Below are positions 436 through 64,000 of a stretch of DNA of 64,000 nucleotides, piece by piece. The stretch comes from the human T2T-CHM13v2.0 reference genome, Homo sapiens: assembly GCA_009914755.4 (NCBI GenBank), contig CP086569.2:42080001-42144000 (forward strand), in the 5' to 3' direction. A program made the translations under genes and the position numbers. A model generated the notes under the pieces. The model saw only the letters and a program-made list of their open reading frames with translations, was not told the origin of the DNA and did not search any database. Position 1 is the stretch's first letter. The number at the start of each line of letters is the position of its first letter.

Positions 436-3400
436 ATGGAGTCAAATGGAATGGTCTGGAATGGAATGAACACGAATGTAATGCAACCCAATAGAATGGA
501 ATCGAATGGCATGGAATATAAAGAAATGGAATCGAAGAGAATGGAAACAAATGGAATGGAATTGAATGGAATGGAATTGAATGGAATGGGAACGAATGGA
601 GTGAAATTGTATGCAGTAGAAGAGAATAGAATGGAATGCAAGCGAAAGGAAAGGAATGGATTGGAATGGAATGGAATTCATTGGAATGGAAGGGAATGTA
701 GTGTAATGGACAGGCCTGGAATAAAGTGGAATGCTACGGTCTCGAATGGAATAAAAATGTATGGAATGGAATGCAATGAAACGGAATCGAATGTCATAGA
801 ATGTAATGGAATGCAAAAAAATGGAATCCAAAATCATTGACTGGAAAGGCTGGGTGTCGAAAGGAATTGACTCCAATGGAATGGAATCGAATGGAATGGA
901 AGTGAATAGAATCGAACTAAATCGAATGGAATGGAATTGATAGGAACGGAATGGAAAGGAATGCAATGATTTGGCATGGAATGGAATCGAATGGCATCGA
1001 ATGGAATGGAATGGAATGCAATGGAATGGAATGTATTAGAATGTAATGAACTTTAATGGAATGTACTCGAATGGATTCGACTGGAATGGAATGTTCTGGA
1101 AGTGAATGGACTCCAATGGAATGGATTCAAAAGGAATGGAATCGTACGGAATGGAATCTAATGGAATGGAATTAAATGGAAATGAATCAAATTGAATAGC
1201 ACGGAATTGAATTGAATGGAATGGAATGCAATGGAATCTAATGAAACGGAAAGGAAAGGAATGGAATGGAATGGAATGGGCTGGAATGGAAAGGAATCGA
1301 AACGAATGGAATGGAATCGAAGTGAAGAGACTGGAATGGAATGCACTGGAATGGAAGGGAGTGTAATGGAAGGTTCTCGAAAAAAATGGAATCGAATGGA
1401 ATGGAATTGAATGGAACGGAATAGAGTCGAATGGAATTGAATGGAATGGAATGGACTAGAGTGAAATGGAATCGAACCACAAGGAATGGACAGGAATAGA
1501 ATGGTCTCGAATTGAATGGAATCGTATGGAATGGCATCAAACGGAATGGAATGGACAGCCACGGAATGGAATGCACTCGAATGCAATGGAGTCGAAACTA
1601 ATGGACTGGAATAGAATGGACTCGACTGGTACGGACTCCAATGGAATGGAATCGAATGGAAGGGAATCGAACGGAATGGAATCGAACGGAATGGACTCGA
1701 AGGGAAAAGACTGCAATGGAAAGGTCTCGAATGGAATGGAAATTAATGGAATGGAATGGAATCGAATGAAATGGAGTCAAAAGGAATGGAATCGAATGGC
1801 AAGAAATCGAATGTAATGGAATCGCCAGGAATTGATGTGAACGGAACGGAATGGAATGGAATCCAAAGGAATGGAATAGAATGGAATGGAATCGAATGGA
1901 AAGGACTCGAATGGAAATCACTCGAATAGAATGCAATTTAATAAAATAGGATCAAATGTAATGGAATGGAATGGAAAGGAATCGAAACGAAAGGAATGGA
2001 GACAGATGGAATGGAATGGAACAGAGAGCAATGGTATAGAATGGAATGGAATCATCTGGAATGGAATTGAATGGAATGGAATAATATGAAATGGAATGGA
2101 ATGGAATGGAATGGAATGCCCTTGAATTAAATGGACTGGAATGGAATGGACTCAAACAGAGTGGAATGGAAAGTGTGGAGATAGAATGGAATGAACTCCT
2201 TTGGAATGGTGTAGTATGCAATGCAATCGACTGGCAGGGAATCAAAAGGAATGTAATCGAATGGATTGGACTGGAATGCAATGGACTCGAATAGATTGGA
2301 AACGGAATGCAAAGGAATGGAATGGAATAGTATGGAATGCAATGGAAGGGAATGGAGTGGAATAGACTAGAGTGGAATGGAATGGACTGGAAAGCAATGG
2401 ACTGGAATGGAACTTTCTTGGATGGACTGGAATCAAACGGAATGGAATGCAGTGCAATCAAATGGCATGGAATAAAATAGAATGAAAGAGAATCAAATGG
2501 AATTGAATCGAATGGAATCGAATGGATTGGAAAGGAATAGAATGGAATGGAATGGAATTGACTCAAATGGAATGGACTAGAATGGAATGGATTCGAATGG
2601 AAGGCAAAGGAATGGAATCTATTGGAATGGACTGTAATGGAATGGAATGGAAGGGATTGGAATGGACTCGAATGGAATGGACTGCAATAGAAAGGATTCG
2701 AATGGAATGAAAAAGAATTGAATGGAATAGAACAGAATGGAATGAAATCGAATGAAATGGAATGGAATAGAAAGGAACGGAATGAAATGGAATGGAAAGG
2801 ATTCGAATGGAATGCAATCGAATGGAATGGAATCGAACGGAATGGAATAAAATGGAAGAAAACTGGCAAGAAATGGAATCGAAATGAATGGAGTGTTATG
2901 GAACGGACTCAAAAGGAATTGAATGTAATAGAATGGAGTGGAGTGGACTCGAATATAATGGACTGGAATGGAATGAAATCACATGGAATGGGAACGAATG
3001 GAATGGAATGGAAAGGAATGGAATCGAATGGAAAGGAATCGAATGGAAGGGAATGAAATTGAATCAACAGGAATGGAAGGGAATAGAATAGACTGTAATG
3101 GAATGGACTCGAATAGAATGGACACGAATGCTCAAATTAAATGGACTCGAATGGAATGGAAACGAAAGGAATGTCATCGAATGGAATTGAATCGATTGGA
3201 ATGAAATCGCATAGAATGGAGTGGAATCAAATGGAATTGAATCGAAAGGAAAGGAAGCGAATGGACTGAAATGAAATGGAATGGAATTGAATGGAAAGTA
3301 ATGCAATGGAATAGAATGGAACGAAATTTCACGGAATGGAATCAAACTGAATGGAATCAAATCAATGGAATCAAATCAAATGGAATGGAAAGGAATTGAA

Positions 3401-4024
3401 TGGAGTAGATGGGATTGGATGGGATTGGAATGAAATGTACTGGAAAGGACTCGAATTTCATGAAACGGAATGGAATGAATTGGAACGGAATTGACTCGAA
3501 TGGAATGGAATGTCATGGGATGGCATCAAATGGAATGACATCAAATGGAATGGAATCGAATGCAATGGAATGCTATGGAATGGAATGGAATGCATTGGAA
3601 TGGAATGTCCGCTAATGGAATGGATTCGAGTGGAATGGAATTGAATATAATGGAGTCGAATGAAATGGAATTGAAAGGAATGGGATCGAATACAATGGAA
3701 TATACTGGAATGTAACGTAATGAACTCGAATGTAATTGACTGGAATGGAATGTACATGAATGGAATGTAATCGAATGGAAAGTAATCCAATGGAATAGAA
3801 TCTAATGCAATAAAATCGACTCAGATAGAGTAGAATGTAATGGAATGGAGTGCAGTGCAATGGAATGGAATGGAATGGAATGCAATGGAATGGAATGGAA
3901 TGGAATGGAATGGAATGGAATGGAATGGAATGGAATGGGATGGAATGGTATGGAATGGATAGTAATGGACTGGAGTGAAATGGACTGGAAAGGAATGGAC
4001 TCAAATTGAAAGGGCTCGAAAGGA
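436..4024 (+). repeat. HOR unit 1 (3589 bp), subtype A
   Basis: Anchor recurrence 436->4025. A-form 'ggaatcgaacggaatggaatcgaacggaatggactcg' at ~1663-1699. Confidence 0.85.
3885..3934 (+). repeat. The same variable (GGAAT)n run in the next copy: 10 perfect pentamers
   Basis: 'atgga' x10 at 3885-3934, then 'atggg' at 3935-3939. This 15-bp excess explains the 3589-bp unit. Confidence 0.8.
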
Positions 4025-7000
4025 ATGGAGTCAAATGGAATGGTCTGGAATGGAATGAACACGAATGTAATGCAACCCAATAGAATGGAATCGAATGGCA
4101 TGGAATATAAAGAAATGGAATCGAAGAGAATGGAAACAAATGGAATGGAATTGAATGGAATGGAATTGAATGGAATGGGAACGAATGGAGTGAAATTGTA
4201 TGCAGTAGAAGAGAATAGAATGGAATGCAAGCGAAAGGAAAGGAATGGATTGGAATGGAATGGAATTCATTGGAATGGAAGGGAATGTAGTGTAATGGAC
4301 AGGCCTGGAATAAAGTGGAATGCTACGGTCTCGAATGGAATAAAAATGTATGGAATGGAATGCAATGAAACGGAATCGAATGTCATAGAATGTAATGGAA
4401 TGCAAAAAAATGGAATCCAAAATCACTGACTGGAGAGGCTGGGTGTCGAAAGGAATTGACTCCAATGGAATGGAATCGAATGGAATGGAAGTGAATAGAA
4501 TCGAACTAAATCGAATGGAATGGAATTGATAGGAACGGAATGGAAAGGAATGCAATGATTTGGCATGGAATGGAATCGAATGGCATCGAATGGAATGGAA
4601 TGGAATGCAATGGAATGGAATGTATTAGAATGTAATGAACTTTAATGGAATGTACTCGAATGGATTCGACTGGAATGGAATGTTCTGGAAGTGAATGGAC
4701 TCCAATGGAATGGATTCAAAAGGAATGGAATCGTACGGAATGGAATCTAATGGAATGGAATTAAATGGAAATGAATCAAATTGAATAGCACGGAATTGAA
4801 TTGAATGGAATGGAATGCAATGGAATCTAATGAAACGGAAAGGAAAGGAATGGAATGGAATGGAATGGGCTGGAATGGATAGGAATCGAAACGAATGGAA
4901 TGGAATCGAAGTGAAGAGACTGTAATGGAATGCACTGGAATGGAAGGGAGTGTAATGGAAGGCTCTCGAAAAAAATGGAATCGAATGGAATGGAATTGAA
5001 TGGAACGGAATAGAGTCGAATGGAATTGAATGGAATGGAATGGACTAGAGTGAAATGGAATCGAACCACAAGGAATGGACAGGAATAGAATGGTCTCGAA
5101 TTGAATGGAATCGTATGGAATGCAATCAAACGGAATGGAATGGACAGCCACGGAATGGAATGCACTCGAATGCAATGGAGTCGAAACTAATGGACTGGAA
5201 TAGAATGGACTCGACTGGTACGGACTCCAATGGAATGGAATCGAATGGAAGGGAATCGAACGGAATGGAATCGAACGGAATGGACTCGAAGGGAAAAGAC
5301 TGCAATGGAAAGGTCTCGAATGGAATGGAAATTAATGGAATGGAATGGAATCGAATGAAATGGAGTCAAAAGGAATGGAATCGAATGGCAAGAAATCGAA
5401 TGTAATGGAATCGCCAGGAATTGATGTGAACGGAACGGAATGGAATGGAATCCAAAGGAATGGAATAGAATGGAATGGAATCGAATGGAAAGGACTCGAA
5501 TGGAAATCACTCGAATAGAATGCAATTTAATAAAATAGGATCAAATGTAATGGAATGGAATGGAAAGGAATCGAAACGAAAGGAATGGAGACAGATGGAA
5601 TGGAATGGAACAGAGAGCAATGGTATAGAATGGAATGGAATCATCTGGAATGGAATTGAATGGAATGGAATAATATGAAATGGAATGGAATGGAATGGAA
5701 TGGAATGCCCTTGAATTAAATGGACTGGAATGGAATGGACTCAAACAGAGTGGAATGGAAAGTGTGGAGATAGAATGGAATGAACTCCTTTGGAATGGTG
5801 TAGTATGCAATGCAATCGACTGGCAGGGAATCAAAAGGAATGTAATCGAATGGATTGGACTGGAATGCAATGGACTCGAATAGATTGGAAACGGAATGCA
5901 AAGGAATGGAATGGAATAGTATGGAATGCAATGGAAGGGAATGGAGTGGAATAGACTAGAGTGGAATGGAATGGACTGGAAAGCAATGGACTGGAATGGA
6001 ACTTTCTTGGATGGACTGGAATCAAACGGAATGGAATGCAGTGCAATCAAATGGCATGGAATAAAATAGAATGAAAGAGAATCAAATGGAATTGAATCGA
6101 ATGGAATCGAATGGATTGGAAAGGAATAGAATGGAATGGAATGGAATTGACTCAAATGGAATGGACTAGAATGGAATGGATTCGAATGGAAGGCAAAGGA
6201 ATGGAATCTATTGGAATGGACTGTAATGGAATGGAATGGAAGGGATTGGAATGGACTCGAATGGAATGGACTGCAATAGAAAGGATTCGAATGGAATGAA
6301 AAAGAATTGAATGGAATAGAACAGAATGGAATCAAATCGAATGAAATGGAATGGAATAGAAAGGAATGGAATGAAATGGAATGGAAAGGATTCGAATGGA
6401 ATGCAATCGAATGGAATGGAATCGAACGGAATGGAATAAAATGGAAGAAAACTGGCAAGAAATGGAATCGAAATGAATGGAGTGTTATGGAACGGACTCA
6501 AAAGGAATTGAATGTAATAGAATGGAGTGGAGTGGACTCGAATATAATGGACTGGAATGGAATGAAATCACATGGAATGGGAACGAATGGAATGGAATGG
6601 AAAGGAATGGAATCGAATGGAAAGGAATCGAATGGAAGGGAATGAAATTGAATCAACACGAATGGAAGGGAATAGAATAGACTGTAATGGAATGGACTCG
6701 AATAGAATGGACACGAATGCTCAAATTAAATGGACTCGAATGGAATGGAAACGAAAGGAATGTCATCGAATGGAATTGAATCGATTGGAATGAAATCGCA
6801 TAGAATGGAGTGGAATCAAATGGAATTGAATCGAAAGGAAAGGAAGCGAATGGACTGAAATGAAATGGAATGGAATTGAATGGAAAGTAATGCAATGGAA
6901 TAGAATGGAACGAAATTTCACGGAATGGAATCAAACTGAATGGAATCAAATCAATGGAATCAAATCAAATGGAATGGAAAGGAATTGAATGGAGTAGATT

Positions 7001-7588
7001 GGATTGGATGGGATTGGAATGAAATGTACTGGAAAGGACTCGAATTTCATGAAACGGAATGGAATGAATTGGAACGGAATGGACTCGAATGGAATGGAAT
7101 GTCATGGGATGGCATCAAATGGAATGACATCAAATGGAATGGAATCGAATGCAATGGAATGCTATGGAATGGAATGGAATGCATTGGAATGGAATGTCCT
7201 CTAATGGAATGGATTCGAGTGGAATGGATTTGAATATAATGGAGTCGAATGAAATGGAATTGAAAGGAATGGGATCGAATACAATGGAATATACAGGAAT
7301 GTAACGTAATGAACTCGAATGTAATTGACTGCAATGGAATGTACATGAATGGAATGTAATCGAATGGAAAGTAATCCAATGGAATAGAATCTAATGCAAT
7401 AAAATCGACTCAGATAGAGTAGAATGTAATGGAATGGAGTGCAGTGCAATGGAATGGAATGGAATGGAATGCAATGGAATGGAATGGAATGGGATGGAAT
7501 GGGATGGAATGGTATGGAATGGATAGTAATGGACTGGAGTGAAATGGACTGGAAAGGAATGGACTCAAATTGAAAGGGCTCGAAAGGA
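4025..7588 (+). repeat. HOR unit 2 (3564 bp), subtype A
   Basis: Anchor recurrence 4025->7589. A-form at ~5252-5288. Tail segment (~6.94 kb onward) carries private variants shared with unit 5. Confidence 0.85.
7474..7508 (+). repeat. The same variable run in the third copy: 3 perfect pentamers plus a duplicated 'atgggatgga' motif
   Basis: 'atgga' x3 (7474-7488), then 'atggg atgga atggg atgga' (7489-7508). Confidence 0.75.
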
Positions 7589-10500
7589 ATGGAGTCAAAT
7601 GGAATGGTCTGGAATGGAATGAACACGAATGTAATGCAACCCAATAGAATGGAATCGAATGGCATGGAATATAAAGAAATGGAATCGAAGAGAATGGAAA
7701 CAAATGGAATGGAATTGAATGGAATGGAATTGAATGGAATGGGAACGAATGGAGTGAAATTGTATGCAGTAGAAGAGAATAGAATGGAATGCAAGCGAAA
7801 GGAAAGGAATGGATTGGAATGGAATGGAATTCATTGGAATGGAAGGGAATGTAGTGTAATGGACAGGCCTGGAATAAAGTGGAATGCTACGGTCTCGAAT
7901 GGAATAAAAATGTATGGAATGGAATGCAATGAAACGGAATCGAATGTCATAGAATGTAATGGAATGCAAAAAAATGGAATCCAAAATCATTGACTGGAAA
8001 GGCTGGGTGTCGAAAGGAATTGACTCCAATGGAATGGAATCGAATGGAATGGAAGTGAATAGAATCGAACTAAATCGAATGGAATGGAATTGATAGGAAC
8101 GGAATGGAAAGGAATGCAATGATTTGGCATGGAATGGAATCGAATGGCATCGAATGGAATGGAATGGAATGCATGGAATGGAATGTATTAGAATGTAATG
8201 AACTTTAATGGAATGTACTCGAATGGATTCGACTGGAATGGAATGTTCTGGAAGTGAATGGACTCCAATGGAATGGATTCAAAAGGAATGGAATCGTACG
8301 GAATGGAATCTAATGGAATGGAATTAAATGGAAATGAATCAAATTGAATAGCACGGAATTGAATTGAATGGAATGGAATGCAATGGAATCTAATGAAACG
8401 GAAAGGAAAGGAATGGAATGGAATGGAATGGGCTGGAATGGAAAGGAATCGAAACGAATGGAATGGAATCGAAGTGAAGAGACTGGAATGGAATGCACTG
8501 GAATGGAAGGGAGTGTAATGGAAGGTTCTCGAAAAAAATGGAATCGAATGGAATGGAATTGAATGGAACGGAATAGAGTCGAATGGAATTGAATGGAATG
8601 GAATGGACTAGAGTGAAATGGAATCGAACCACAAGGAATGGACAGGAATAGAATGGTCTCGAATTGAATGGAATCGTATGGAATGGCATCAAACGGAATG
8701 GAATGGACAGCCACGGAATGGAATGCACTCGAATGCAATGGAGTCGAAACTAATGGACTGGAATAGAATGGACTCGACTGGTACGGACTCCAATGGAATG
8801 GAATCGAATGGAAGGGAATCGAACGGAATGGAATCGAACGGAATGGACTCGAAGGGAAAAGACTGCAATGGAAAGGTCTCGAATGGAATGGAAATTAATG
8901 GAATGGAATGGAATCGAATGAAATGGAGTCAAAAGGAATGGAATCGAATGGCAAGAAATCGAATGTAATGGAATCGCCAGGAATTGATGTGAACGGAACG
9001 GAATGGAATGGAATCCAAAGGAATGGAATAGAATGGAATGGAATCGAATGGAAAGGACTCGAATGGAAATCACTCGAATAGAATGCAATTTAATAAAATA
9101 GGATCAAATGTAATGGAATGGAATGGAAAGGAATCGAAACGAAAGGAATGGAGACAGATGGAATGGAATGGAACAGAGAGCAATGGTATAGAATGGAATG
9201 GAATCATCTGGAATGGAATTGAATGGAATGGAATAATATGAAATGGAATGGAATGGAATGGAATGGAATGCCCTTGAATTAAATGGACTGGAATGGAATG
9301 GACTCAAACAGAGTGGAATGGAAAGTGTGGAGATAGAATGGAATGAACTCCTTTGGAATGGTGTAGTATGCAATGCAATCGACTGGCAGGGAGTCAAAAG
9401 GTATGTAATCGAATGGATTGGACTGGAATGCAAAGGACTCGAATAGATTGGAAACGGAATGCAAAGGAATGGAATGGAATAGTATGGAATGCAATGGAAG
9501 GGAATGCAGTGGAATAGACTAGAGTGGAATGGAATGGACTGGAAAGCAATGGACTGGAATGGAACTTTCTTGGATGGACTGGAATCAAACGGAATGGAAT
9601 GCAGTGCAATCAAATGGCATGGAATAAAATAGAATGAAAGAGAATCAAATGGAATTGAATCGAATGGAATCGAATGGATTGGAAAGGAATAGAATGGAAT
9701 GGAATGGAATTGACTCAAATGGAATGGACTAGAATGGAATGGATTCGAATGGAAGGCAAAGGAATGGAATCTATTGGAATGGACTGTAATGGAATGGAAT
9801 GGAAGGGATTGGAATGGACTCGAATGGAATGGACTGCAATAGAAAGGATTCGAATGGAATGAAAAAGAATTGAATGGAATAGAACAGAATGGAATCAAAT
9901 CGAATGAAATGGAATGGAATAGAAAGGAATGGAATGAAATGGAATGGAAAGGATTCGAATGGAATGCAATCGAATGGAATGGAATCGAACGGAATGGAAT
10001 AAAATGGAAGAAAACTGGCAAGAAATGGAATCGAAATGAATGGAGTGTTATGGAACGGACTCAAAAGGAATTGAATGTAATAGAATGGAGTGGAGTGGAC
10101 TCGAATATAATGGACTGGAATGGAATGAAATCACATGGAATGGGAACGAATGGAATGGAATGGAAAGGAATGGAATCGAATGGAAAGGAATCGAATGGAA
10201 GGGAATGAAATTGAATCAACAGGAATGGAAGGGAATAGAATAGACTGTAATGGAATGGACTCGAATAGAATGGACACGAATGCTCAAATTAAATGGACTC
10301 GAATGGAATGGAAACGAAAGGAATGTCATCGAATGGAATTGAATCGATTGGAATGAAATCGCATAGAATGGAGTGGAATCAAATGGAATTGAATCGAAAG
10401 GAAAGGAAGCGAATGGACTGAAATGAAATGGAATGGAATTGAATGGAAAGTAATGCAATGGAATAGAATGGAACGAAATTTCACGGAATGGAATCAAACT

Positions 10501-11176
10501 GAATGGAATCAAATCAATGGAATCAAATCAAATGGAATGGAAAGGAATTGAATGGAGTAGATGGGATTGGATGGGATTGGAATGAAATATACTGGAAAGG
10601 ACTCGAATTTCATGAAACGGAATGGAATGAATTGGAACGGAATGGACTCGAATGGAATGGAATGTCATGGGATGGCATCAAATGGAATGACATCAAATGG
10701 AATGGAATCGAATGCAATGGAATGCTATGGAATGGAATGGAATGCATTGGAATGGAATGTCCGCTAATGGAATGGATTCGAGTGGAATGGAATTGAATAT
10801 AATGGAGTCGAATGAAATGGAATTGAAAGGAATGGGATCGAATACAATGGAATATACTGGAATGTAACGTAATGAACTCGAATGTAATTGACTGGAATGG
10901 AATGTACATGAATGGAATGTAATCGAATGGAAAGTAATCCAATGGAATAGAATCTAATGCAATAAAATCGACTCAGATAGAGTAGAATGTAATGGAATGG
11001 AGTGCAGTGCAATGGAATGGAATGGAATGGAATGCAATGGAATGGAATGGAATGGAATAGAATGGAATGGAATGGAATGGGATGGAATGGGATGGAATGG
11101 TATGGAATGGATAGTAATGGACTGGAGTGAAATGGACTGGAAAGGAATGGACTCAAATTGAAAGGGCTCGAAAGGA
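7589..11176 (+). repeat. HOR unit 3 (3588 bp), subtype A. Carries a 1-bp deletion shared with unit 6.
   Basis: Anchor recurrence. 'gaatgcatggaatgg' at 8166-8180 versus 'gaatgcaatggaatgg' in other copies. Confidence 0.85.
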
Positions 11177-14100: not shown

Positions 14101-14750
14101 ATCAAATGGAATGGAAAGGAATTGAATGGAGTAGATGGGATTGGATGGGATTGGAATGAAATGTACTGGAAAGGACTCGAATTTCATGAAACGGAATGGA
14201 ATGAATTGGAACGGAATGGACTCGAATGGAATGGAATGTCATGGGATGGCATCAAATGGAATGACATCAAATGGAATGGAATCGAATGCAATGGAATGCT
14301 ATGGAATGGAATGGAATGCATTGGAATGGAATGTCCGCTAATGGAATGGATTCGAGTGGAATGGAATTGAATATAATGGAGTCGAATGAAATGGAATTGA
14401 AAGGAATGGGATCGAATACAATGGAATATACTGGAATGTAACGTAATGAACTCGAATGTAATTGACTGGAATGGAATGTACATGAATGGAATGTAATCGA
14501 ATGGAAAGTAATCCAATGGAATAGAATCTAATGCAATAAAATCGACTCAGATAGAGTAGAATGTAATGGAATGGAGTGCAGTGCAATGGAATGGAATGGA
14601 ATGGAATGCAATGGAATGGAATGGAATGGAATGGAATGGAATGGAATGGAATGGGATGGAATGGGATGGAATGGTATGGAATGGATAGTAATGGACTGGA
14701 GTGAAATGGACTGGAAAGGAATGGACTCAAATTGAAAGGTCTCGAAAGGA
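11177..14750 (+). repeat. HOR unit 4 (3574 bp), subtype B (15-bp deletion form)
   Basis: Anchor recurrence. 'ggaatcgaacggaatggactcg' at ~12404-12425 lacks one 'aatcgaacggaatgg' copy. 'gtaatgcaaggttctcg' at ~12104. Confidence 0.85.
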
Positions 14751-53200: not shown

Positions 53201-53873
53201 CTGAATGGAATCAAATCAATGGAATCAAATCAAATGGAATGGAAAGGAATTGAATGGAGTAGATGGGATTGGATGGGATTGGAATGAAATGTACTGGAAA
53301 GGACTCGAATTTCATGAAACGGAATGGAATGAATTGGAACGGAATGGACTCGAATGGAATGGAATGTCATGGGATGGCATCAAATGGAATGACATCAAAT
53401 GGAATGGAATCGAATGCAATGGAATGCTATGGAATGGAATGGAATGCATTGGAATGGAATGTCCTCTAATGGAATGGATTCGAGTGGAATGGAATTGAAT
53501 ATAATGGAGTCGAATGAAATGGAATTGAAAGGAATGGGATCGAATACAATGGAATACACTGGAATGTAACGTAATGAACTCGAATGTAATTGACTGGAAT
53601 GGAATGTACATGAATGGAATGTAATCGAATGGAAAGTAATCCAATGGAATAGAATCTAATGCAATAAAATCGACTCAGATAGAGTAGAATGTAATGGAAT
53701 GGAGTGCAGTGCAATGGAATGGAATGGAATGGAATGCAATGGAATGGAATGGAATGGAATGGAATGGAATGGAATGGAATGGAATGGGATGGAATGGTAT
53801 GGAATGGATAGTAATGGACTGGAGTGAAATGGACTGGAAAGGAATGGACTCAAATTGAAAGGGCTCGAAAGGA
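50290..53873 (+). repeat. HOR unit 15 (3584 bp), subtype C. Last unit with the 'ggaaacaaagggaatgg' variant.
   Basis: Anchor recurrence. C-form at ~51520. 'aatgacatcaaatgg' (flank-type) at ~53390. Confidence 0.85.
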
Positions 53874-56800
53874 ATGGAGTCAAATGGAATGGTCTGGAAT
53901 GGAATGAACACGAATGTAATGCAACCCAATAGAATGGAATCGAATGGCATGGAATATAAAGAAATGGAATCGAAGAGAATGGAAACAAATGGAATGGAAT
54001 TGAATGGAATGGAATTGAATGGAATGGGAACGAATGGAGTGAAATTGTATGCAGTAGAAGAGAATAGAATGGAATGCAAGCGAAAGGAAAGGAATGGATT
54101 GGAATGGAATGGAATTCATTGGAATGGAAGGGAATGTAGTGTAATGGACAGGCCTGGAATAAAGTGGAATGCTACGGTCTCGAATGGAATAAAAATGTAT
54201 TGAATGGAATGCAATGAAACGGAATCGAATGTCATAGAATGTAATGGAATGCAAAAAAATGGAATCCAAAATCATTGACTGGAAAGGCTGGGTGTCGAAA
54301 GGAATTGACTCCAATGGAATGGAATCGAATGGAATGGAAGTGAATAGAATCGAACTAAATCGAATGGAATGGAATTGATAGGAACGGAATGGAAAGGAAT
54401 GCAATGATTTGGCATGGAATGGAATCGAATGGCATCGAATGGAATGGAATGGAATGCAATGGAATGGAATGTATTAGAATGTAATGAACTTTAATGGAAT
54501 GTACTCGAATGGATTCGACTGGAATGGAATGTTCTGGAAGTGAATGGACTCCAATGGAATGGATTCAAAAGGAATGGAATCGTACGGAATGGAATCTAAT
54601 GGAATGGAATTAAATGGAAATGAATCAAATTGAATAGCACGGAATTGAATTGAATGGAATCGAATGCAATGGAATCTAATGAAACGGAAAGGAAAGGAAT
54701 GGAATGGAATGGAATGGGCTGGAATGGAAAGGAATCGAAACGAATGGAATGGAATCGAACTGAAGAGACTGGAATGGAATGCACTGGAATGGAAGGGAGT
54801 GTAATGGAAGGTTCTCGAAAAAAATGGAATCGAATGGAATGGAATTGAATGGAACGGAATAGAGTCGAATGGAATTGAATGGAATGGAATGGACTAGAGT
54901 GAAATGGAATCGAACCACAAGGAATGGACAGGAATAGAATGGTCTCGAATTGAATGGAATCGTATGGAATGGCATCAAACGGAATGGAATGGACAGCCAC
55001 GGAATGGAATGCACTCGAATGCAATGGAGTCGAAACTAATGGACTGGAATAGAATGGACTCGACTGGTACGGACTCCAATGGAATGGAATCGAATGGAAG
55101 GGAATCGAACGGAATGGAATCGAACGGAATGGACTCGAAGGGAAAAGACTGCAATGGAAAGGTCTCGAATGGAATGGAAATTAATGGAATGGAATGGAAT
55201 CGAATGAAATGGAGTCAAAAGGAATGGAATCGAATGGCAAGAAATCGAATGTAATGGAATCGCCAGGAATTGATGTGAACGGAACGGAATGGAATGGAAT
55301 CCAAAGGAATGGAATAGAATGGAATGGAATCGAATGGAAAGGACTCGAATGGAAATCACTCGAATAGAATGCAATTTAATAAAATAGGATCAAATGTAAT
55401 GGAATGGAATGGAAAGGAATCGAAACGAAAGGAATGGAGACAGATGGAATGGAATGGAACAGAGAGCAATGGTATAGAATGGAATGGAATCATCTGGAAT
55501 GGAATTGAATGGAATGGAATAATATGAAATGGAATGGAATGGAATGGAATGGAATGCCCTTGAATTAAATGGACTGGAATGGAATGGACTCAAACAGAGT
55601 GGAATGGAAAGTGTGGAGATAGAATGGAATGAACTCCTTTGGAATGGTGTAGTATGCAATGCAATCGACTGGCAGGGAATCAAAAGGAATGTAATCGAAT
55701 GGATTGGACTGGAATGCAATGGACTCGAATAGATTGGAAACGGAATGCAAAGGAATGGAATGGAATAGTATGGAATGCAATGGAAGGGAATGGAGTGGAA
55801 TAGACTAGAGTGGAATGGAATGGACTGGAAAGCAATGGACTGGAATGGAACTTTCTTGGATGGACTGGAATCAAACGGAATGGAATGCAATGCAATCAAA
55901 TGGCATGGAATAAAATAGAATGAAAGAGAATCAAATGGAATTGAATCGAATGGAATCGAATGGATTGGAAAGGAATAGAATGGAATGGAATGGAATTGAC
56001 TCAAATGGAATGGACTAGAATGGAATGGATTCGAACGGAAAGCAAAGGAATGGAATCTATTGGAATGGACTGTAATGGAATGGAATGGAAGGGATTGGAA
56101 TGGACTCGAATGGAATGGACTGCAATAGAAAGGATTCGAATGGAATGAAAAAGAATTGAATGGAATAGAACAGAATGGAATCAAATCGAATGAAATGGAA
56201 TGGAATAGAAAGGAATGGAATGAAATGGAATGGAAAGGATTCGAATGGAATGCAATCGAATGGAATGGAATCGAACGGAATGGAATAAAATGGAAGAAAA
56301 CTGGCAAGAAATGGAATCGAAATGAATGGAGTGTTATGGAACGGACTCAAAAGGAATTGAATGTAATAGAATGGAGTGGAGTGGACTCGAATATAATGGA
56401 CTGGAATGGAATGAAATCACATGGAATGGGAACGAATGGAATGGAATGGAAAGGAATGGAAACGAATGGAAAGGAATCGAATGGAAGGGAATGAAATTGA
56501 ATCAACACGAATGGAAGGGAATAGAATAGACTGTAATGGAATGGACTCGAATAGAATGGACACGAATGCTCAAATTAAATGGACTCGAATGGAATGGAAA
56601 CGAAAGGAATGTCATCGAATGGAATTGAATCGATTGGAATGAAATCGCATAGAATGGAGTGGAATCAAATGGAATTGAATCGAAAGGAAAGGAAGCGAAT
56701 GGACTGAAATGAAATGGAATGGAATTGAATGGAAAGTAATGCAATGGAATAGAATGGAACGAAATTTCACGGAATGGAATCAAACTGAATGGAATCAAAT

Positions 56801-57447
56801 CAATGGAATCAAATCAAATGGAATGGAAAGGAATTGAATGGAGTAGATGGGATTGGATGGGATTGGAATGAAATGTACTGGAAAGGACTCGAATTTCATG
56901 AAACGGAATGGAATGAATTGGAACGGAATGGACTCGAATGGAATGGAATGTCATGGGATGGCATCAAATGGAATGACATCAAATGGAATGGAATCGAATG
57001 CAATGGAATGCTATGGAATGGAATGGAATGCATTGGAATGGAATGTCCGCTAATGGAATGGATTCGAGTGGAATGGAATTGAATATAATGGAGTCGAATG
57101 AAATGGAATTGAAAGGAATGGGATCGAATACAATGGAATATACTGGAATGTAACGTAATGAACTCGAATGTAATTGACTGGAATGGAATGTACATGAATG
57201 GAATGTAATCGAATGGAAAGTAATCCAATGGAATAGAATCTAATGCAATAAAATCGACTCAGATAGAGTAGAATGTAATGGAATGGAGTGCAGTGCAATG
57301 GAATGGAATGGAATGCAATGGAATGGAATGGAATGGAATGGAATGGAATGGAATGGAATGGGATGGAATGGTATGGAATGGATAGTAATGGACTGGAGTG
57401 AAATGGACTGGAAAGGAATGGACTCAAATTGAAAGGGCTCGAAAGGA
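53874..57447 (+). repeat. HOR unit 16 (3574 bp), subtype A
   Basis: Anchor recurrence. A-form 'ggaatcgaacggaatggaatcgaacggaatggactcg' at ~55100-55136. 'atgtattgaatgg' substitution at ~54196. Confidence 0.85.
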
Positions 57448-60400
57448 ATGGAGTCAAATGGAATGGTCTGGAATGGAATGAACACGAATGTAATGCAACC
57501 CAATAGAATGGAATCGAATGGCATGGAATATAAAGAAATGGAATCGAAGAGAATGGAAACAAATGGAATGGAATTGAATGGAATGGAATTGAATGGAATG
57601 GGAACGAATGGAGTGAAATTGTATGCAGTAGAAGAGAATAGAATGGAATGCAAGCGAAAGGAAAGGAATGGATTGGAATGGAATGGAATTCATTGGAATG
57701 GAAGGGAATGTAGTGTAATGGACAGGCCTGGAATAAAGTGGAATGCTACGGTCTCGAATGGAATAAAAATGTATGGAATGGAATGCAATGAAACGGAATC
57801 GAATGTCATAGAATGTAATGGAATGCAAAAAAATGGAATCCAAAATCATTGACTGGAAAGGCTGGGTGTCGAAAGGAATTGACTCCAATGGAATGGAATC
57901 GAATGGAATGGAAGTGAATAGAATCGAACTAAATCGAATGGAATGGAATTGATAGGAACGGAATGGAAAGGAATGCAATGATTTGGCATGGAATGGAATC
58001 GAATGGCATCGAATGGAATGGAATGGAATGCAATGGAATGGAATGTATTAGAATGTAATGAACTTTAATGGAATGTACTCGAATGGATTCGACTGGAATG
58101 GAATGTTCTGGAAGTGAATGGACTCCAATGGAATGGATTCAAAAGGAATGGAATCGTACGGAATGGAATCTAATGGAATGGAATTAAATGGAAATGAATC
58201 AAATTGAATAGCACGGAATTGAATTGAATGGAATGGAATGCAATGGAATCTAATGAAACGGAAAGGAAAGGAATGGAATGGAATGGAATGGGCTGGAATG
58301 GAAAGGAATCGAAACGAATGGAATGGAATCGAAGTGAAGAGACTGGAATGGAATGCACTGGAATGGAAGGGAGTGTAATGCAAGGTTCTCGAAAAAAATG
58401 GAATCGAATGGAATGGAATTGAATGGAACGTAATAGAGTCGAATGGAATTGAATGGAATGGAATGGACTAGAGTGAAATGGAATCGAACCACAAGGAATG
58501 GACAGGAATAGAATGGTCTCGAATTGAATGGAATCGTATGGAATGGCATCAAACGGAATGGAATGGACAGCCACGGAATGGAATGCACTCGAATGCAATG
58601 GAGTCGAAACTAATGGACTGGAATAGAATGGACTCGACTGGTACGGACTCCAATGGAATGGAATCGAATGGAAGGGAATCGAACGGAAGGGAATCGAACG
58701 GAATGGACTCGAAGGGAAAAGACTGCAATGGAAAGGTCTCGAATGGAATGGAAATTAATGGAATGGAATGGAATCGAATGAAATGGAGTCAAAAGGAATG
58801 GAATCGAATGGCAAGAAATCGAATGTAATGGAATCGCAAGGAATTGATGTGAACGGAACGGAATGGAATGGGATCCAAAGGAATGGAATAGAATGGAATG
58901 GAATCGAATGGAAAGGACTCGAATGGAAATCACTCGAATAGAATGCAATTTGATAAAATAGGATCAAATGTAATGGAATGGAATGGAAAGGAATCGAAAC
59001 GAAAGGAATGGAGACAGATGGAATGGAATGGAACAGAGAGCAATGGTATAGAATGGAATGGAATCATCTGGAATGGAATTGAATGGAATGGAATAATATG
59101 AAATGGAATGGAATGGAATGGAATGGAATGCCCTTGAATTAAATGGACTGGAATGGAATGGACTCAAACAGAGTGGAATGGAAAGTGTGGAGATAGAATG
59201 GAATGAACTCCTTTGGAATGGTGTAGTATGCAATGCAATCGACTGGCAGGGAATCAAAAGGAATGTAATCGAATGGATTGGACTGGAATGCAATGGACTC
59301 GAAGAGATTGGAAACGGAATGCAAAGGAATGGAATGGAATAGTATGGAATGCAATGGAAGGGAATGGAGTGGAATAGACTAGAGTGGAATGGAATGGACT
59401 GGAATGCAATGGACTGGAATGGAACTTTCTTGGATGGATTGGAATCAAACGGAATGGAATGCAATGCAATCAAATGGCATGGAATAAAATAGAATGAAAG
59501 AGAATCAAATGGAATTGAATCGAATGGAATCGAATGGATTGGAAAGGAATAGAATGGAATGGAATGGAATTGACTCAAATGGAATGGACTAGAATGGAAT
59601 GGATTCGAATGGAAGGCAAAGGAATGGAATCTATTGGAATGGACTGTAATGGAATGGAATGGAAGGGATTGGAATGGACTCGAATGGAATGGACTGCAAT
59701 AGAAAGGATTCGAATGGAATGAAAAAGAATTGAATGGAATAGAACAGAATGGAATCAAATCGAATGAAATGGAATGGAATAGAAAGGAATGGAATGAAAT
59801 GGAATGGAAAGGATTCGAATGGAATGCAATCGAATGGAATGGAATCGAACGGAATGGAATAAAATGGAAGAAAACTGGCAAGAAATGGAATCGAAATGAA
59901 TGGAGTGTTATGGAACGGACTCAAAAGGAATTGAATGTAATAGAATTGAGTGGAGTGGACTCGAATATAATGGACTGGAATGGAATGAAATCACATGGAA
60001 TGGGAACGAATGGAATGGAATGGAAAGGAATGGAATCCAATGGAAAGGAATCGAATGGAAGGGAATGAAATTGAATCAACAGGAATGGAAGGGAATAGAA
60101 TAGACGGTAATGGAATGGACTCGGATAGAATGGACACGAATGCTCAAATTAAATGGACTCGAATTGAATGGAAACGAAAGGAATGTCATCGAATGGAATT
60201 GAATCGATTGGAATGAAATCGCATAGAATGGAGTGGAATCAAATGGAATTGAATCGAAAGGAAAGGAAGCGAATGGACTGAAATGAAATGGAATGGAATT
60301 GAATGGAAAGTAATGCAATGGAATAGAATGGAACGAAATTTCACGGAATGGAATCAAACTGAATGGAATCAAATCAATGGAATCAAATCAAATGGAATGG

Positions 60401-61036
60401 AAAGGAATTGAATGGAGTAGATGGGATTGGATGGGATTGGAATGAAATGTACTGGAAAGGACTCGAATTTCATGAAACGGAATGGAATGAATTGGAACGG
60501 AATGGACTCGAATGGAATGGAATGTCATGGGATGGCATCAAATGGAATGACATCAAATGGAATGGAATCGAATGCAATGGAATGCTATGGAATGGAATGG
60601 AATGCATTGGAATGGAATGTCCGCTAATGGAATGGATTCGAGTGGAATGGAATTGAATATAATGGAGTCGAATGAAATGGAATTGAAAGGAATGGGATCG
60701 AATACAATGGAATATACTGGAATGTAACGTAATGAACTCGAATGTAATTGACTGGAATGGAATGTACATGAATGGAATGTAATCGAATGGAAAGTAATCC
60801 AATGGAATAGAATCTAATGCAATAAAATCGACTCAGATAGAGTAGAATGTAATGGAATGGAGTGCAGTGCAATGGAATGGAATGGAATGGAATGCAATGG
60901 AATGGAATGGAATGGAATGGAATGGAATGGAATGGAATGGAATGGAATGGGATGGAATGGTATGGAATGGATAGTAATGGACTGGAGTGAAATGGACTGG
61001 AAAGGAATGGACTCAAATTGAAAGGGCTCGAAAGGA
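57448..61036 (+). repeat. HOR unit 17 (3589 bp), mosaic. Unit-4/5-like at the front ('gtaatgcaaggttctcg' ~58375), C-form in the middle.
   Basis: Anchor recurrence. C-form at ~58680. 'gtccgctaatgg' ending. Confidence 0.85.
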
Positions 61037-64000
61037 ATGGAGTCAAATGGAATGGTCTGGAATGGAATGAACACGAATGTAATGCAACCCAATAGAATGG
61101 AATCGAATGGCATGGAATATAAAGAAATGGAATCGAAGAGAATGGAAACAAATGGAATGGAATTGAATGGAATGGAATTGAATGGAATGGGAACGAATGG
61201 AGTGAAATTGTATGCAGTAGAAGAGAATAGAATGGAATGCAAGCGAAAGGAAAGGAATGGATTGGAATGGAATGGAATTCATTGGAATGGAAGGGAATGT
61301 AGTGTAATGGACAGGCCTGGAATAAAGTGGAATGCTACGGTCTCGAATGGAATAAAAATGTATGGAATGGAATGCAATGAAACGGAATCGAATGTCATAG
61401 AATGTAATGGAATGCAAAAAAATGGAATCCAAAATCATTGACTGGAAAGGCTGGGTGTCGAAAGGAATTGACTCCAATGGAATGGAATCGAATGGAATGG
61501 AAGTGAATAGAATCGAACTAAATCGAATGGAATGGAATTGATAGGAACGGAATGGAAAGGAATGCAATGATTTGGCATGGAATGGAATCGAATGGCATCG
61601 AATGGAATGGAATGGAATGCAATGGAATGGAATGTATTAGAATGTAATGAACTTTAATGGAATGTACTCGAATGGATTCGACTGGAATGGAATGTTCTGG
61701 AAGTGAATGGACTCCAATGGAATGGATTCAAAAGGAATGGAATCGTACGGAATGGAATCTAATGGAATGGAATTAAATGGAAATGAATCAAATTGAATAG
61801 CACGGAATTGAATTGAATGGAATGGAATGCAATGGAATCTAATGAAACGGAAAGGAAAGGAATGGAATGGAATGGAATGGGCTGGAATGGAAAGGAATCG
61901 AAACGAATGGAATGGAATCGAACTGAAGAGACTGGAATGGAATGCACTGGAATGGAAGGGAGTGTAATGGAAGGTTGTCGAAAAAAATGGAATCGAATGG
62001 AATGGAATTGAATGGAACGGAATAGAGTCGAATGGAATTGAATGGAATGGAATGGACTAGAGTGAAATGGAATCGAACCACAAGGAATGGACAGGAATAG
62101 AATGGTCTCGAATTGAATGGAATCGTATGGAATGGCATCAAACGGAATGGAATGGACAGCCACGGAATGGAATGCACTCGAATGCAATGGAGTCGAAACT
62201 AATGGACTGGAATAGAATGGACTCGACTGGTACGGACTCCAATGGAATGGAATCGAATGGAAGGGAATCGAACGGAAGGGAATCGAACGGAATGGACTCG
62301 AAGGGAAAAGACTGCAATGGAAAGGTCTCGAATGGAATGGAAATTAATGGAATGGAATGGAATCGAATGAAATGGAGTCAAAAGGAATGGAATCGAATGG
62401 CAAGAAATCGAATGTAATGGAATCGCCAGGAATTGATGTGTACGGAACGGAATGGAATGGAATCCAAAGGAATGGAATAGAATGGAATGGAATCGAATGG
62501 AAAGGACTCGAATGGAAATCACTCGAATAGAATGCAATTTAATAAAATAGGATCAAATGTAATGGAATGGAATGGAAAGGAATCGAAACGAAAGGAATGG
62601 AGACAGATGGAATGGAATGGAACAGAGAGCAATGGTATAGAATGGAATGGAATCATCTGGAATGGAATTGAATGGAATGGAATAATATGAAATGGAATGG
62701 AATGGAATGGAGTGGAATGCCCTTGAATTAAATGGACTGGAATGGAATGGACTCAAACAGAGTGGAATGGAAAGTGTGGAGATAGAATGGAATGAACTCC
62801 TTTGGAATGGTGTAGTATGCAATGCAATCGACTGGCAGGGAATCAAAAGGAATGTAATCGAATGGATTGGACTGGAATGCAATGGACTCGAATAGATTGG
62901 AAACGGAATGCAAAGGAATGGAATGGAATAGTATGGAATGCAATGGAAGGGAATGGAGTGGAATAGACTAGAGTGGAAAGGAATGGACTGGAAAGCAATG
63001 GACTGAAATGGAACTTTCTTGGATGGACTGGAATCAAACGGAATGGAATGCAATGCAATCAAATGGCATGGAATAAAATAGAATGAAAGAGAATCAAATG
63101 GAATTGAATCGAATGGAATCGAATGGATTGGAAATGAATAGAATGGAATGGAATGGAATTGACTCAAATGGAATGGACTAGAATGGAATGGATTCGAATG
63201 GAAGGCAAAGGAATGGAATCTATTGGAATGGACTGTAATGGAATGGAATGGAAGGGATTGGAATGGACTCGAATGGAATGGACTGCAATAGAAAGGATTC
63301 GAATGGAATGAAAAAGAATTGAATGGAATAGAACAGAATGGAATCAAATCGAATGAAATGGAATGGAATAGAAAGGAATGGAATGAAATGGAATGGAAAG
63401 GATTCGAATGGAATGCAATCGAATGGAATGGAATCGAACGGAATGGAATAAAATGGAAGAAAACTGGCAAGAAATGGAATCGAAATGAATGGAGTGTTAT
63501 GGAACGGACTCAAAAGGAATTGAATGTAATAGAATGGAGTGGAGTGGACTCGAATATAATGGACTGGAATGGAATGAAATCACATGGAATGGGAACGAAT
63601 GGAATGGAATGGAAAGGAATGGAATCGAATGGAAAGGAATCGAATGGAAGGGAATGAAATTGAATCAACACGAATGGAAGGGAATAGAATAGACTGTAAT
63701 GGAATGGACTCGAATAGAATGGACACGAATGCTCAAATTAAATGGACTCGAATGGAATGGAAACGAAAGGAATGTCATCGAATGGAATTGAATCGATTGG
63801 AATGACATCGCATAGAATGGAGTGGAATCAAATGGAATTGAATCGAAAGGAAAGGAAGCGAATGGACTGAAATGAAATGGAATGGAATTGAATGGAAAGT
63901 AATGCAATGGAATAGAATGGAACGAAATTTCACGGAATGGAATCAAACTGAATGGAATCAAATCAATGGAATCAAATCAAATGGAATGGAAAGGAATTGA
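61037..64000 (+). repeat. HOR unit 18 (partial, first 2964 bp), subtype C
   Basis: Anchor at 61037. C-form at ~62270. Sequence stays colinear with other units to the window end. Confidence 0.85.

What the first reader, a model, noticed from the sequence alone, without database searches (positions are those of the whole stretch)
1460..62420. Three HOR sequence subtypes (A, B, C) arranged in blocks, not randomly
About 1.2 kb into each unit there is a diagnostic site. A-form is 'ggaatcgaacggaatggaatcgaacggaatggactcg' (units 1, 2, 3, 6, 16). B-form has a 15-bp deletion of one 'aatcgaacggaatgg' and usually also carries 'gtaatgcaaggttctcg' (units 4, 5, 7, 8). C-form is 'ggaatcgaacggaagggaatcgaacggaatggactcg' and usually also carries 'aaggttgtcg' (units 9-12, 14, 15, 17, 18, and unit 13 in its background). 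The left ~29 kb is A/B and the right ~35 kb is mostly C, with a lone A unit at 53.9-57.4 kb. Such blocks are the expected signature of local homogenisation by unequal crossover in a satellite. The switch near 29 kb marks a boundary between two homogenisation domains.
Basis: seen in the sequence. Interest (0 to 1): 0.5.

Follow-up and report, generated by a model that had tools for sequence, protein, structure and literature searches.

The report
Variant blocks in Y-chromosome DYZ1 satellite

Summary
The window holds 18 copies of a ~3.57 kb (GGAAT)n-derived unit. Unit 13 lost the site in a 110-bp deletion. The labels are clustered (7 runs against 12.2 expected, P about 0.006).

The satellite is DYZ1 / HSat3A6 of human Yq12. 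Published DYZ1 primers, the single HaeIII site per unit and the unit length all fit.

- 19 of 31 other informative sites are tree-incompatible with A/B/C.
- Bootstrap support for A, B or C as clades is 0-5%.
- Supported clades cross classes (u8B+u10C, u2A+u5B, u7B+u9C).
- The best single change point is after unit 6 (~21.8 kb), not at 29 kb.

The site is a one- or two-copy 15-mer, and A, B and C are each one mutational step from the others. B is the form in most outside DYZ1 contigs, so it is probably not a derived deletion.

What fits best is a locally homogenised DYZ1 sub-family, with 9 differences from the outside consensus fixed across the window. It has been reshuffled by 1-3-unit duplications and sub-kilobase conversion patches. 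This is known satellite behaviour and of low novelty.

The parts
1..64000 (+). Uninterrupted DYZ1 (HSat3A6) array. It holds 17 complete units and 2 partial ~3.57 kb units. The GGAAT-rich strand is +, the reverse of the published TTCCA orientation.
   Evidence: TRF finds 5n periods over 1-63997. The dominant self-distances are 3559-3589. GC is 0.38-0.40. There is one HaeIII and one EcoRI site per unit. DYZ1 primers B, C, D, E and F of PMC3925983 match exactly once per unit.
379..21805 (+). Units 1-6 (starts 379, 3968, 7532, 11120, 14694, 18253), with diagnostic forms A A A B B A. This block carries local derived alleles 944G, 2074G and 3160A.
21806..36086 (+). Units 7-10 (starts 21806, 25375, 28939, 32508), with forms B B C C. 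This is a transitional block with outside-consensus states at 2074A, 3160G and 3233T. u7/u9 and u8/u10 share private variants.
36087..53816 (+). Units 11-15 (starts 36087, 39666, 43225, 46674, 50233), with forms C C (deleted) C C. u11 and u12 differ at only 2 sites. 174G is shared by u11, 12, 13 and 15.
53817..64000 (+). Units 16-18 (starts 53817, 57391, 60980; u18 is cut by the window end), with forms A C C. u16 and u17 return to left-type 3160A and 3233G. u17 also carries 944G and 991C.
1663..1699 (+). Diagnostic site, A form: two copies of the 15-mer in the frame GGAATCGAACGGAAT. It recurs at 5252, 8815, 19536 and 55101.
12390..12416 (+). Diagnostic site, B form: a single 15-mer, GGAAGGGAATCGAACGGAATGGACTCG. 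It recurs in units 5, 7 and 8, near 15964, 23076 and 26645.
   Evidence: It is the same form as most outside DYZ1 contigs.
30223..30259 (+). Diagnostic site, C form: two copies in the frame GGAAGGGAATCGAAC. It recurs at 33792, 37371, 40950, 47958, 51517, 58675 and 62264.
44485..44486 (+). Junction of the 110-bp deletion (22 pentamers) in unit 13. It removes the diagnostic site and lies between the 19-bp direct repeats AATGGAATGGAATCGAATG.
   Evidence: Unit 13 is 3449 bp long.
7000..10170 (+). Copy 1 of a duplication offset by three units (10,721 bp), running from the tail of u2 into u3. Copy 2 is 17711-20891, from the tail of u5 into u6. Identity is 99.9%. The copies share the private alleles 3033T, 3328A, del642, 1863G, 1872T, 1904A and 1977C.
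   Evidence: An exact 2,677-bp match, 7494-10170 = 18215-20891. Identity, shared alleles.
23395..28519 (+). Copy 1 of an older segment offset by two units (~7.15 kb), from mid-u7 through u8. Copy 2 is 30543-35667, from mid-u9 through u10. Identity is 99.69%. The copies share the private alleles 1605T, 2281C, 2673A, 580A, 666G, 1664C and 2099T. A switched patch interrupts them.
26041..27022 (+). Candidate conversion patch in unit 8, at alignment columns 667-1663 (minimum tract 944-1299, 356 bp). It carries the left-type states 944G, 998C and B. The flanks match unit 10. The counterpart patch in unit 10 is 33174-34170 and carries 944C, 998G and C.
   Evidence: Within the patch, u8 is nearest u1 and u3-6 (2 differences) and u10 is nearest u11, 13, 15 and 18 (2 differences). 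In the flanks, u8's nearest unit is u10, and u10 is tied nearest to u8 and u14 (8 differences each).
35341..43086 (+). Most recent duplication, offset by one unit: 35341-39507 against 38920-43086, with one mismatch in 4,167 bp.

Best explanation
The window is part of one DYZ1 (HSat3A6) array of the human Yq12 heterochromatin.

Shown: its ~18 units form a locally homogenised sub-family. Nine substitutions are fixed in every unit but absent from the DYZ1 consensus found elsewhere.

Shown: the A/B/C marker is a copy-number site of a 15-mer. B has one copy. A and C each have two copies and differ only by the base at the duplication junction. Each form is one mutational step from the other two.

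Shown: the remaining variation is a mosaic. Variants are shared in matching linear order between segments offset by 1, 2 and 3 units, and the unit alignment requires at least 9 recombination events.

Inferred: the array changes by out-of-register exchange or replication slippage between sister chromatids. That duplicates or deletes segments of 1-3 units (3.6-10.7 kb). Short gene-conversion patches of about 0.36-1.0 kb then paste a neighbour's variants into an otherwise unrelated unit. The blocks of A, B and C arise because such local copying carries along whatever state the 15-mer site has.

Inferred: slippage at the 15-mer may add some recurrent changes on top.

The blocks therefore reflect short-range copying, not three clonal unit lineages or two sealed domains.
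For: Identity:
- Period 3449-3589 bp.
- One HaeIII site per unit.
- Five DYZ1 primers from PMC3925983 match exactly once per unit.
- GC is 0.38-0.40 against the 38% reported for DYZ1. The modal DYZ1 HaeIII fragment is reported as 3,569 bp (bioRxiv 10.1101/2022.12.01.518658).

Local sub-family: 18 SNV columns and the 15-bp indel separate the window consensus from two outside full-length contigs. Those two contigs differ from each other at only 3 of 3,525 columns. Nine of the 18 columns are fixed in all window units.

Short-range copying:
- Doubleton sharing at a lag of 3 units or less in 8 of 10 carrier pairs, P=0.002.
- Lag-1 segment with 1 mismatch in 4,167 bp; lag-3 segment 99.9% identical; lag-2 segment 99.69% identical. 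Mean unit divergence is 0.49%.

Mosaicism:
- 19 of 31 characters are incompatible with A/B/C.
- Hudson-Kaplan Rm is 9, or 4 using only non-CpG transversions and indels.
- Clades that cross classes have 57-86% bootstrap support.

Conversion: u8 and u10 share derived alleles on both sides of a patch in which 944, 998 and the 15-mer site all switch together to the states of their respective neighbours.

One-step triangle of A, B and C. B is predominant outside the window.

Literature: unequal exchange and sister-chromatid exchange in Yq12 are reported in bioRxiv 10.1101/2022.12.01.518724. Gene-conversion-like de novo changes in Yq12 are reported in bioRxiv 10.64898/2026.06.03.729890.
Against: - Only 18 units and about 33 informative characters are available, so power is limited.
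- The Mantel correlation between distance and lag is not significant.
- The lag-2 'duplication' is only modestly closer (0.31%) than the average unit pair (0.49%).
- Every diagnostic state occurs on both the 944G and 944C backgrounds when outside contigs are included. This could mean recurrent slippage rather than conversion at that site.
- Polarity rests on short-read contaminant contigs. These give a majority consensus, not sampled single units, and several of them probably come from the same contaminating male.
- Assembly accuracy of this satellite window cannot be checked here.
Confidence: 0.7

Rival explanations
1. Three clonal HOR subtypes (A, B, C) were amplified by unequal crossover in two separate homogenisation domains that meet near 29 kb.
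For: Labels are clustered (P=0.006). Columns 944, 998 and the diagnostic site all switch between units 8 and 9. With all characters included, within-class distance is lower than between-class distance (P=0.013).
Against: - A, B and C are never clades (0-5% bootstrap).
- 19 of 31 characters are incompatible with them.
- The class effect disappears once the defining sites are removed (P=0.17).
- The best change point is after unit 6.
- The pairs u7/u9 and u8/u10 straddle the supposed boundary.
- Unit 17, labelled 'C', is left-like at 944, 991, 2692, 3160 and 3233.
Confidence: 0.1
2. Recurrent mutation at a hotspot. The 15-mer site flips among A, B and C repeatedly by slippage and by micro-conversion between the two copies. 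Its states are then homoplasies, and the blocks reflect only the recent local duplications that copied them.
For: - All three forms are one step apart, and 19-20 alternative 15-bp deletions turn A or C into B.
- There are 8 different haplotypes across columns 944, 991, 998 and the site among 17 units.
- 15-bp indels are a recurring class in DYZ1: another in unit 6 at columns 2637-2651, and several reported in PMC3925983.
Against: - In u8 versus u10 the site switches together with two non-CpG transversions (944, 998), 301-355 bp away, to exactly the neighbouring block's haplotype. This points to patch transfer rather than independent mutation.
- The A form was not seen in 44 outside DYZ1 matches, so it does not seem to arise easily.
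Confidence: 0.15
3. Assembly artefact. Collapsed, mis-joined or mis-polished satellite reads created chimeric units and spurious variants.
For: - The origin of the window is unknown.
- Single-unit variants are many (72 of 105 characters).
- The spectrum is unusual, with 70 transversions against 31 transitions.
Against: - Informative variants recur in the same linear order in segments 3.6-10.7 kb apart.
- Indels are whole multiples of the pentamer and lie between direct repeats.
- Unit lengths match the published DYZ1 range.
Confidence: 0.05

Closest known systems
DYZ1 / HSat3A6, the ~3.56 kb HaeIII repeat of human Yq12
   Same: It is built on the GGAAT/TTCCA pentamer. The unit is 3.45-3.59 kb, with a single HaeIII and a single EcoRI site per unit. 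GC is about 38-40%. Published DYZ1 primers match exactly. Units are more than 99% alike.
   Different: Nothing differs in kind. The window consensus carries 18 substitutions relative to the outside DYZ1 consensus contigs, 9 of them fixed in the window. In 13 of 17 units it also carries a 15-bp tandem duplication. It is therefore a local sub-family of DYZ1.
HOR-haplotype domains of alpha-satellite arrays, as described in T2T centromere studies (recalled from my own knowledge, not tested here)
   Same: Variants of the repeat unit cluster spatially along the array. This is attributed to local expansion and homogenisation.
   Different: In this window the marker-defined classes are not whole-unit lineages. 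Variants elsewhere in the unit cut across them, and no sharp domain boundary is seen over the 64 kb.
Intra-array gene conversion and unequal sister-chromatid exchange in Yq12
   Same: Segments offset by 1-3 units are near-identical. A sub-kilobase patch is switched between units that otherwise match. This agrees with the reported sister-chromatid exchanges and iterative duplications and with the gene-conversion-like de novo SNVs in DYZ1 and DYZ2.
   Different: The published duplications are described at scales up to megabases. Here the registers are only 3.6-10.7 kb, and they are inferred from one static sequence rather than observed in transmissions.

Membership tests
DYZ1 / HSat3A6 | Derived from tandem GGAAT (TTCCA/CATTC) pentamers | tested here: met
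   TRF consensus units ATGGAATCGAATGGA, and (ATGGA)n with periods 15, 25 and 45, cover 1-63997. The sequence was also read directly.
DYZ1 / HSat3A6 | Higher-order period of about 3.56 kb, released as a single HaeIII fragment | tested here: met
   There are 18 GGCC sites, one per unit, spaced 3449-3589 bp apart. The literature gives 3,564 bp (PMC3925983) and a modal 3,569 bp.
DYZ1 / HSat3A6 | Sequence match to DYZ1-specific primers | tested here: met
   Primers B, C, D, E and F of PMC3925983 Table 5 match exactly 17 times each, and primer G matches 18 times with one mismatch. All sit in the expected order and spacing on the minus strand. Primer A has no match within one mismatch.
DYZ1 / HSat3A6 | Base composition of about 38% GC | tested here: met
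   GC is 0.377-0.400 in every 2-kb window, against the 38% reported.
DYZ1 / HSat3A6 | Location in Yq12, in arrays that alternate with DYZ2 (HSat1B) | not testable with these tools
   The window contains no array edge and no DYZ2. No human assembly is available to place it.
Clonal HOR subtypes (whole-unit haplotypes) in homogenisation domains | The defining variants co-segregate with other variants, so that each subtype is a clade | tested here: not met
   19 of 31 characters are incompatible. Bootstrap support for A, B and C is 0-5%. There is no significant class effect without the defining sites.
Clonal HOR subtypes (whole-unit haplotypes) in homogenisation domains | Subtypes are spatially clustered | tested here: met
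   7 runs against 12.2 expected, P=0.006.
Clonal HOR subtypes (whole-unit haplotypes) in homogenisation domains | A single shared boundary at which many variants switch together | tested here: not met
   Three sites switch between u8 and u9 and three between u6 and u7. The summed G statistic peaks after unit 6. Sites 3160 and 3233 revert at units 15-17.
Gene-conversion patch | Recipient and sister copy are identical on both flanks, with a contiguous internal tract that matches a different donor | tested here: met
   u8 and u10 share 580A and 666G on the left and 1664C and 2099T on the right. Inside the tract, 944, 998 and the 15-mer site match the left block in u8 and the right block in u10. 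A double crossover would look the same.

The most novel reading that the evidence does not exclude
DYZ1 arrays may have a fine-scale turnover regime that has not been described at this resolution. Duplication registers of 2 and 3 units (7.1 and 10.7 kb) would be preferred over single-unit slips, since 6 of the 8 short-range sharing pairs are at lag 2-3. Conversion tracts of about 0.4-1 kb would act alongside them. The 15-mer copy-number site would then serve as a fast-changing marker for tracing sub-array lineages across Y haplogroups. The transversion-rich variant spectrum (70 tv : 31 ts) could reflect a mutation process specific to this satellite.
Probability: 0.15. Interest if true: 0.35.

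Novelty: already known. Interest (0 to 1): 0.15.

Why it matters
It matters little beyond bookkeeping. The window is a textbook human satellite. Local homogenisation by unequal exchange and gene conversion in Yq12 is already documented in the complete Y assemblies and in pedigree studies.

The useful results are corrective:
- A single diagnostic motif is a poor proxy for repeat-unit lineages.
- The 'deletion' form is in fact the standard DYZ1 form.
- The variant pattern gives a small worked example of 1-3-unit duplication registers and a sub-kilobase conversion patch.

Tried and rejected
- The sexing primers I recalled from memory (TCCACTTTATTCCAGGCCTGTCC / TTGAATGGAATGGGAACGAATGG) match once per unit. 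A full-text search found no paper holding the first primer, so I do not rely on them. I used the primers printed in PMC3925983 instead.
- A Mantel test of sequence distance against unit separation was not significant (r=0.09, P=0.22). Similarity falls only over lags 1-3 and recovers at lags 10-12, so the relation is not a simple gradient.
- I tested whether SNVs are templated by neighbouring pentamers at offsets of ±5, ±10 and ±15. There was only a weak excess (30 against 24.3 expected), so this does not explain the transversion excess.
- Exact repeats of 1.5 kb or more number only six, the longest 2,677 bp. The units are therefore not recent perfect copies, and I relied on shared derived alleles instead.
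- A scan of viral contigs for the DYZ1 anchor found nothing.
- The long metagenome contigs (L014, L016, L022) contained only one exact anchor match per 6-15 kb, and two of the three carried indel-type deviations at the site. I did not use them as multi-unit comparators.
Full report
**What the window is.**
- The whole 64 kb is a GGAAT-derived satellite with uniform composition: GC 0.38-0.40 and strong G-over-C skew.
- Self-distances of 24-mers peak at 3559-3589 bp.
- The anchor GACTGGAGTGAAATGG occurs 18 times, at 379, 3968, 7532, 11120, 14694, 18253, 21806, 25375, 28939, 32508, 36087, 39666, 43225, 46674, 50233, 53817, 57391 and 60980.
Unit lengths are 3449-3589 bp.
- Each unit has exactly one HaeIII site and one EcoRI site.
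- Five of the seven DYZ1 primers printed in Table 5 of PMC3925983 match exactly once per unit, and a sixth matches with one mismatch. All are in the expected order on the minus strand.
- The literature describes DYZ1 (HSat3A6) as a Y-specific ~3.5-3.6 kb nested repeat of the pentamer, 38% GC, with a modal HaeIII fragment of 3,569 bp.
- I therefore file the window as DYZ1 of human Yq12. The chromosomal position itself cannot be tested here.

**The observation.**
- The A form is at 1663, 5252, 8815, 19536 and 55101 (units 1, 2, 3, 6, 16).
- The C form is at 30223, 33792, 37371, 40950, 47958, 51517, 58675 and 62264 (units 9-12, 14, 15, 17, 18).
- Units 4, 5, 7 and 8 lack 15 bp at alignment columns 1285-1299.
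- Unit 13 lost the site in a 110-bp deletion between 19-bp direct repeats, with its junction at 44485/44486.
- The order AAABBABBCCCC?CCACC has 7 runs against 12.2 expected, P=0.006. The clustering is real.
- The secondary markers are looser than stated. The 'B' marker (column 991 C) is in units 4, 5 and 7 and in C-type unit 17, but not in B-type unit 8. The 'C' marker (column 998 G) is in units 9-13 and 18, but not in units 14, 15 and 17.

- I cut the window at the anchors and aligned the units.
- Outside the length-variable (GGAAT)n tail there are 105 variable characters, 33 of them informative.
- Mean divergence between units is 0.49%.
- Of the 31 informative characters other than the two defining ones, 19 fail the four-gamete test against A/B/C.
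- In neighbour-joining trees, A, B and C are never clades (bootstrap 0-5%).
- The supported groups are u3+u6 (98%), u11+u12 (97-98%), u8B+u10C (72-83%), u8+u10+u14 (71-84%), u2A+u5B (57-86%) and u7B+u9C (46-65%).
- With the diagnostic and secondary sites removed, units of one class are no more alike than units of different classes (14.9 against 15.9 differences, P=0.17). Circular shifts of the labels do as well in 5 of 17 cases.
- The minimum number of recombination events in the unit alignment is 9, or 4 using only non-CpG transversions and indels.
As argued below, the alternative is mostly mosaicism rather than purely independent recurrent mutation.

**The boundary.**
- Columns 944, 998 and the diagnostic site switch between units 8 and 9 (about 26.7-29.9 kb).
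- Columns 2074, 3160 and 3233 switch between units 6 and 7.
- Columns 3160 and 3233 switch back at units 15-17.
- A change-point scan over all informative sites peaks after unit 6, at about 21.8 kb (G=118.8, against 104.4 after unit 8).
- Units 7/9 and 8/10 share private variants across the proposed boundary.
- There is a broad transition zone, not a sharp junction between two sealed domains.

**What the marker is.**
- B reads GGAAGGGAATCGAACGGAATGGACTCG.
- Duplicating the 15-mer in the frame GGAATCGAACGGAAT gives A exactly.
- Duplicating it in the frame GGAAGGGAATCGAAC gives C exactly.
- A and C differ by one T/G.
- Any of 19-20 alternative 15-bp deletions turns A or C back into B.
- The three forms are thus mutually one step apart, and shared state is weak evidence of common descent.

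**Polarity.**
- To polarise the change I fished human DYZ1 contamination out of public bacterial genome and metagenome assemblies, using a conserved anchor 40 bp upstream of the site.
- Of 44 matches, 30 have exactly B, most of the 11 'other' matches are B-length with an extra SNV, 3 have C and none has A.
- Two full-length circularly collapsed contigs (3,574 and 3,569 bp) differ from each other at only 3 of 3,525 columns, and both carry B.
- B is therefore the standard DYZ1 form. The two-copy forms are the local peculiarity, present in 13 of 17 units here.
- Caveat 1: these contigs are short-read majority consensuses, and several probably come from one contaminating person.
- Caveat 2: the primer coordinates in PMC3925983 imply a 93-bp spacing that equals the two-copy length. 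Two-copy units therefore exist elsewhere too.

**Stronger evidence for local homogenisation than A/B/C.**
- The window consensus differs from the outside consensus at 18 SNV columns plus the indel.
- Nine of these (columns 109, 1776, 1799, 1816, 1962, 1970, 2761, 3141, 3264) are fixed in every unit of the window.
- At a tenth column (2043) no window unit carries the outside state either, although unit 9 has a third base.
- Three more are fixed but for one unit (1448, 2716, 3338).
- The rest are polymorphic (944, 2074, 2692, 3033, 3160).
- The whole window thus belongs to one local DYZ1 sub-family.

**How the pattern arises.** Variants carried by exactly two units involve 10 distinct unit pairs. 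Eight of these pairs are 3 units apart or less (P=0.002): two at lag 1, four at lag 2 and two at lag 3. In linear order:

| Register | Copy 1 | Copy 2 | Similarity |
|---|---|---|---|
| one unit | 35341-39507 | 38920-43086 | 1 mismatch in 4,167 bp |
| three units (10,721 bp) | 7000-10170 | 17711-20891 | 99.9%, seven shared private alleles |
| two units | 23395-28519 | 30543-35667 | 99.69%, seven shared private alleles |

- These are what out-of-register exchange between sister chromatids would leave. The male-specific Y has no homologue, so sister chromatids are the likely partners.
- Units 8 and 10 share derived alleles at 580 and 666 and at 1664 and 2099, yet differ at 944, 998 and the 15-mer site in between.
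- In that patch, unit 8 matches the left block (2 differences to u1 and u3-6) and unit 10 matches the right block (2 differences to u11, 13, 15 and 18). In the flanks unit 8's closest unit is unit 10, and unit 10's closest are units 8 and 14, at 8 differences each.
- This is the signature of a 356-997 bp gene-conversion tract or a double crossover. Two of the three switched sites are non-CpG transversions, so coincident recurrent mutation is unlikely in this case.
- The duplication registers and the conversion patch are inferences from one static sequence. They agree with published reports of unequal exchange, sister-chromatid exchange and conversion-like de novo changes in Yq12.

**Rivals.**
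- Recurrent slippage at the 15-mer probably contributes. All three forms occur on both 944 backgrounds once outside contigs are counted, and 15-bp indels recur in DYZ1.
- An assembly artefact cannot be excluded without reads. It is unlikely because variants recur in matching order and indels are pentamer multiples.

**Verdict.**
- The clustering and local homogenisation are real. 'Three HOR subtypes' and 'a boundary at 29 kb' are not supported, and 'B is a deletion' probably has the polarity backwards.
- This is a known satellite behaving as known satellites do, so interest is low.

Noticed in passing
window 1-64000 (alignment columns 109, 1776, 1799, 1816, 1962, 1970, 2761, 3141, 3264): Nine substitutions are fixed in all 17-18 units of the window but absent from two independent outside DYZ1 consensus contigs (L001, L006). 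Those two contigs differ from each other at only 3 of 3,525 columns. The whole window is a local DYZ1 sub-family.
   Followed up: partly
window 4426-5124 (unit 2, alignment columns 459-1157): Seven single-unit SNVs cluster in about 700 bp of unit 2, and none occur in the next 1.9 kb. This may be a patch imported from a divergent DYZ1 unit outside the window. None of the seven alleles was found in the outside contigs.
   Followed up: partly
window 58431-60165 (unit 17, alignment columns 1041-2775): Unit 17 has 12 single-unit SNVs, all within this stretch. Two of them (1448A, 2716G) are the outside DYZ1 consensus state, which every other window unit has lost. The middle of this unit looks foreign to the local sub-family.
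   Followed up: partly
window 44485/44486 (unit 13) and about 20889 (unit 6, columns 2637-2651): All indels are pentamer multiples lying between direct repeats: a 110-bp deletion in unit 13 and a second 15-bp deletion in unit 6. There is also one single-base deletion, shared by units 3 and 6 at column 642.
   Followed up: yes
whole window, 101 biallelic unit-to-unit SNVs: Transversions outnumber transitions, 70 to 31, and G>T is the commonest class (20). From my own knowledge, the usual human germline ratio is about 2 transitions per transversion. Templating by neighbouring pentamers explains little of this, at 30 observed against 24.3 expected.
   Followed up: partly
last ~70 bp of each unit (e.g. 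window 290-378, 3880-3967): The pure (ATGGA)n run before each anchor varies in length and in small motifs. The doubled GGGATGG is seen in the tails of units 2, 3, 4 and 6; AATCGTATGG in units 10 and 11; AATAGACTGG in units 7, 9, 12, 13 and 14. These too are shared locally.
   Followed up: no
L001-L006 (genome contigs) and L007-L043 (metagenome contigs): Human Y-chromosome DYZ1 sequence sits as contamination in deposited bacterial assemblies. Examples are Actinomadura cremea JCM 3308 BMRF01000076.1, three Streptomyces JCM records, Senimuribacter sp. DSM 106208 CALPCJ010000057.1 and a Polyangiaceae MAG. It also occurs in 37 metagenome contigs. Two of the contigs are whole collapsed units of 3,574 and 3,569 bp.
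   Followed up: partly
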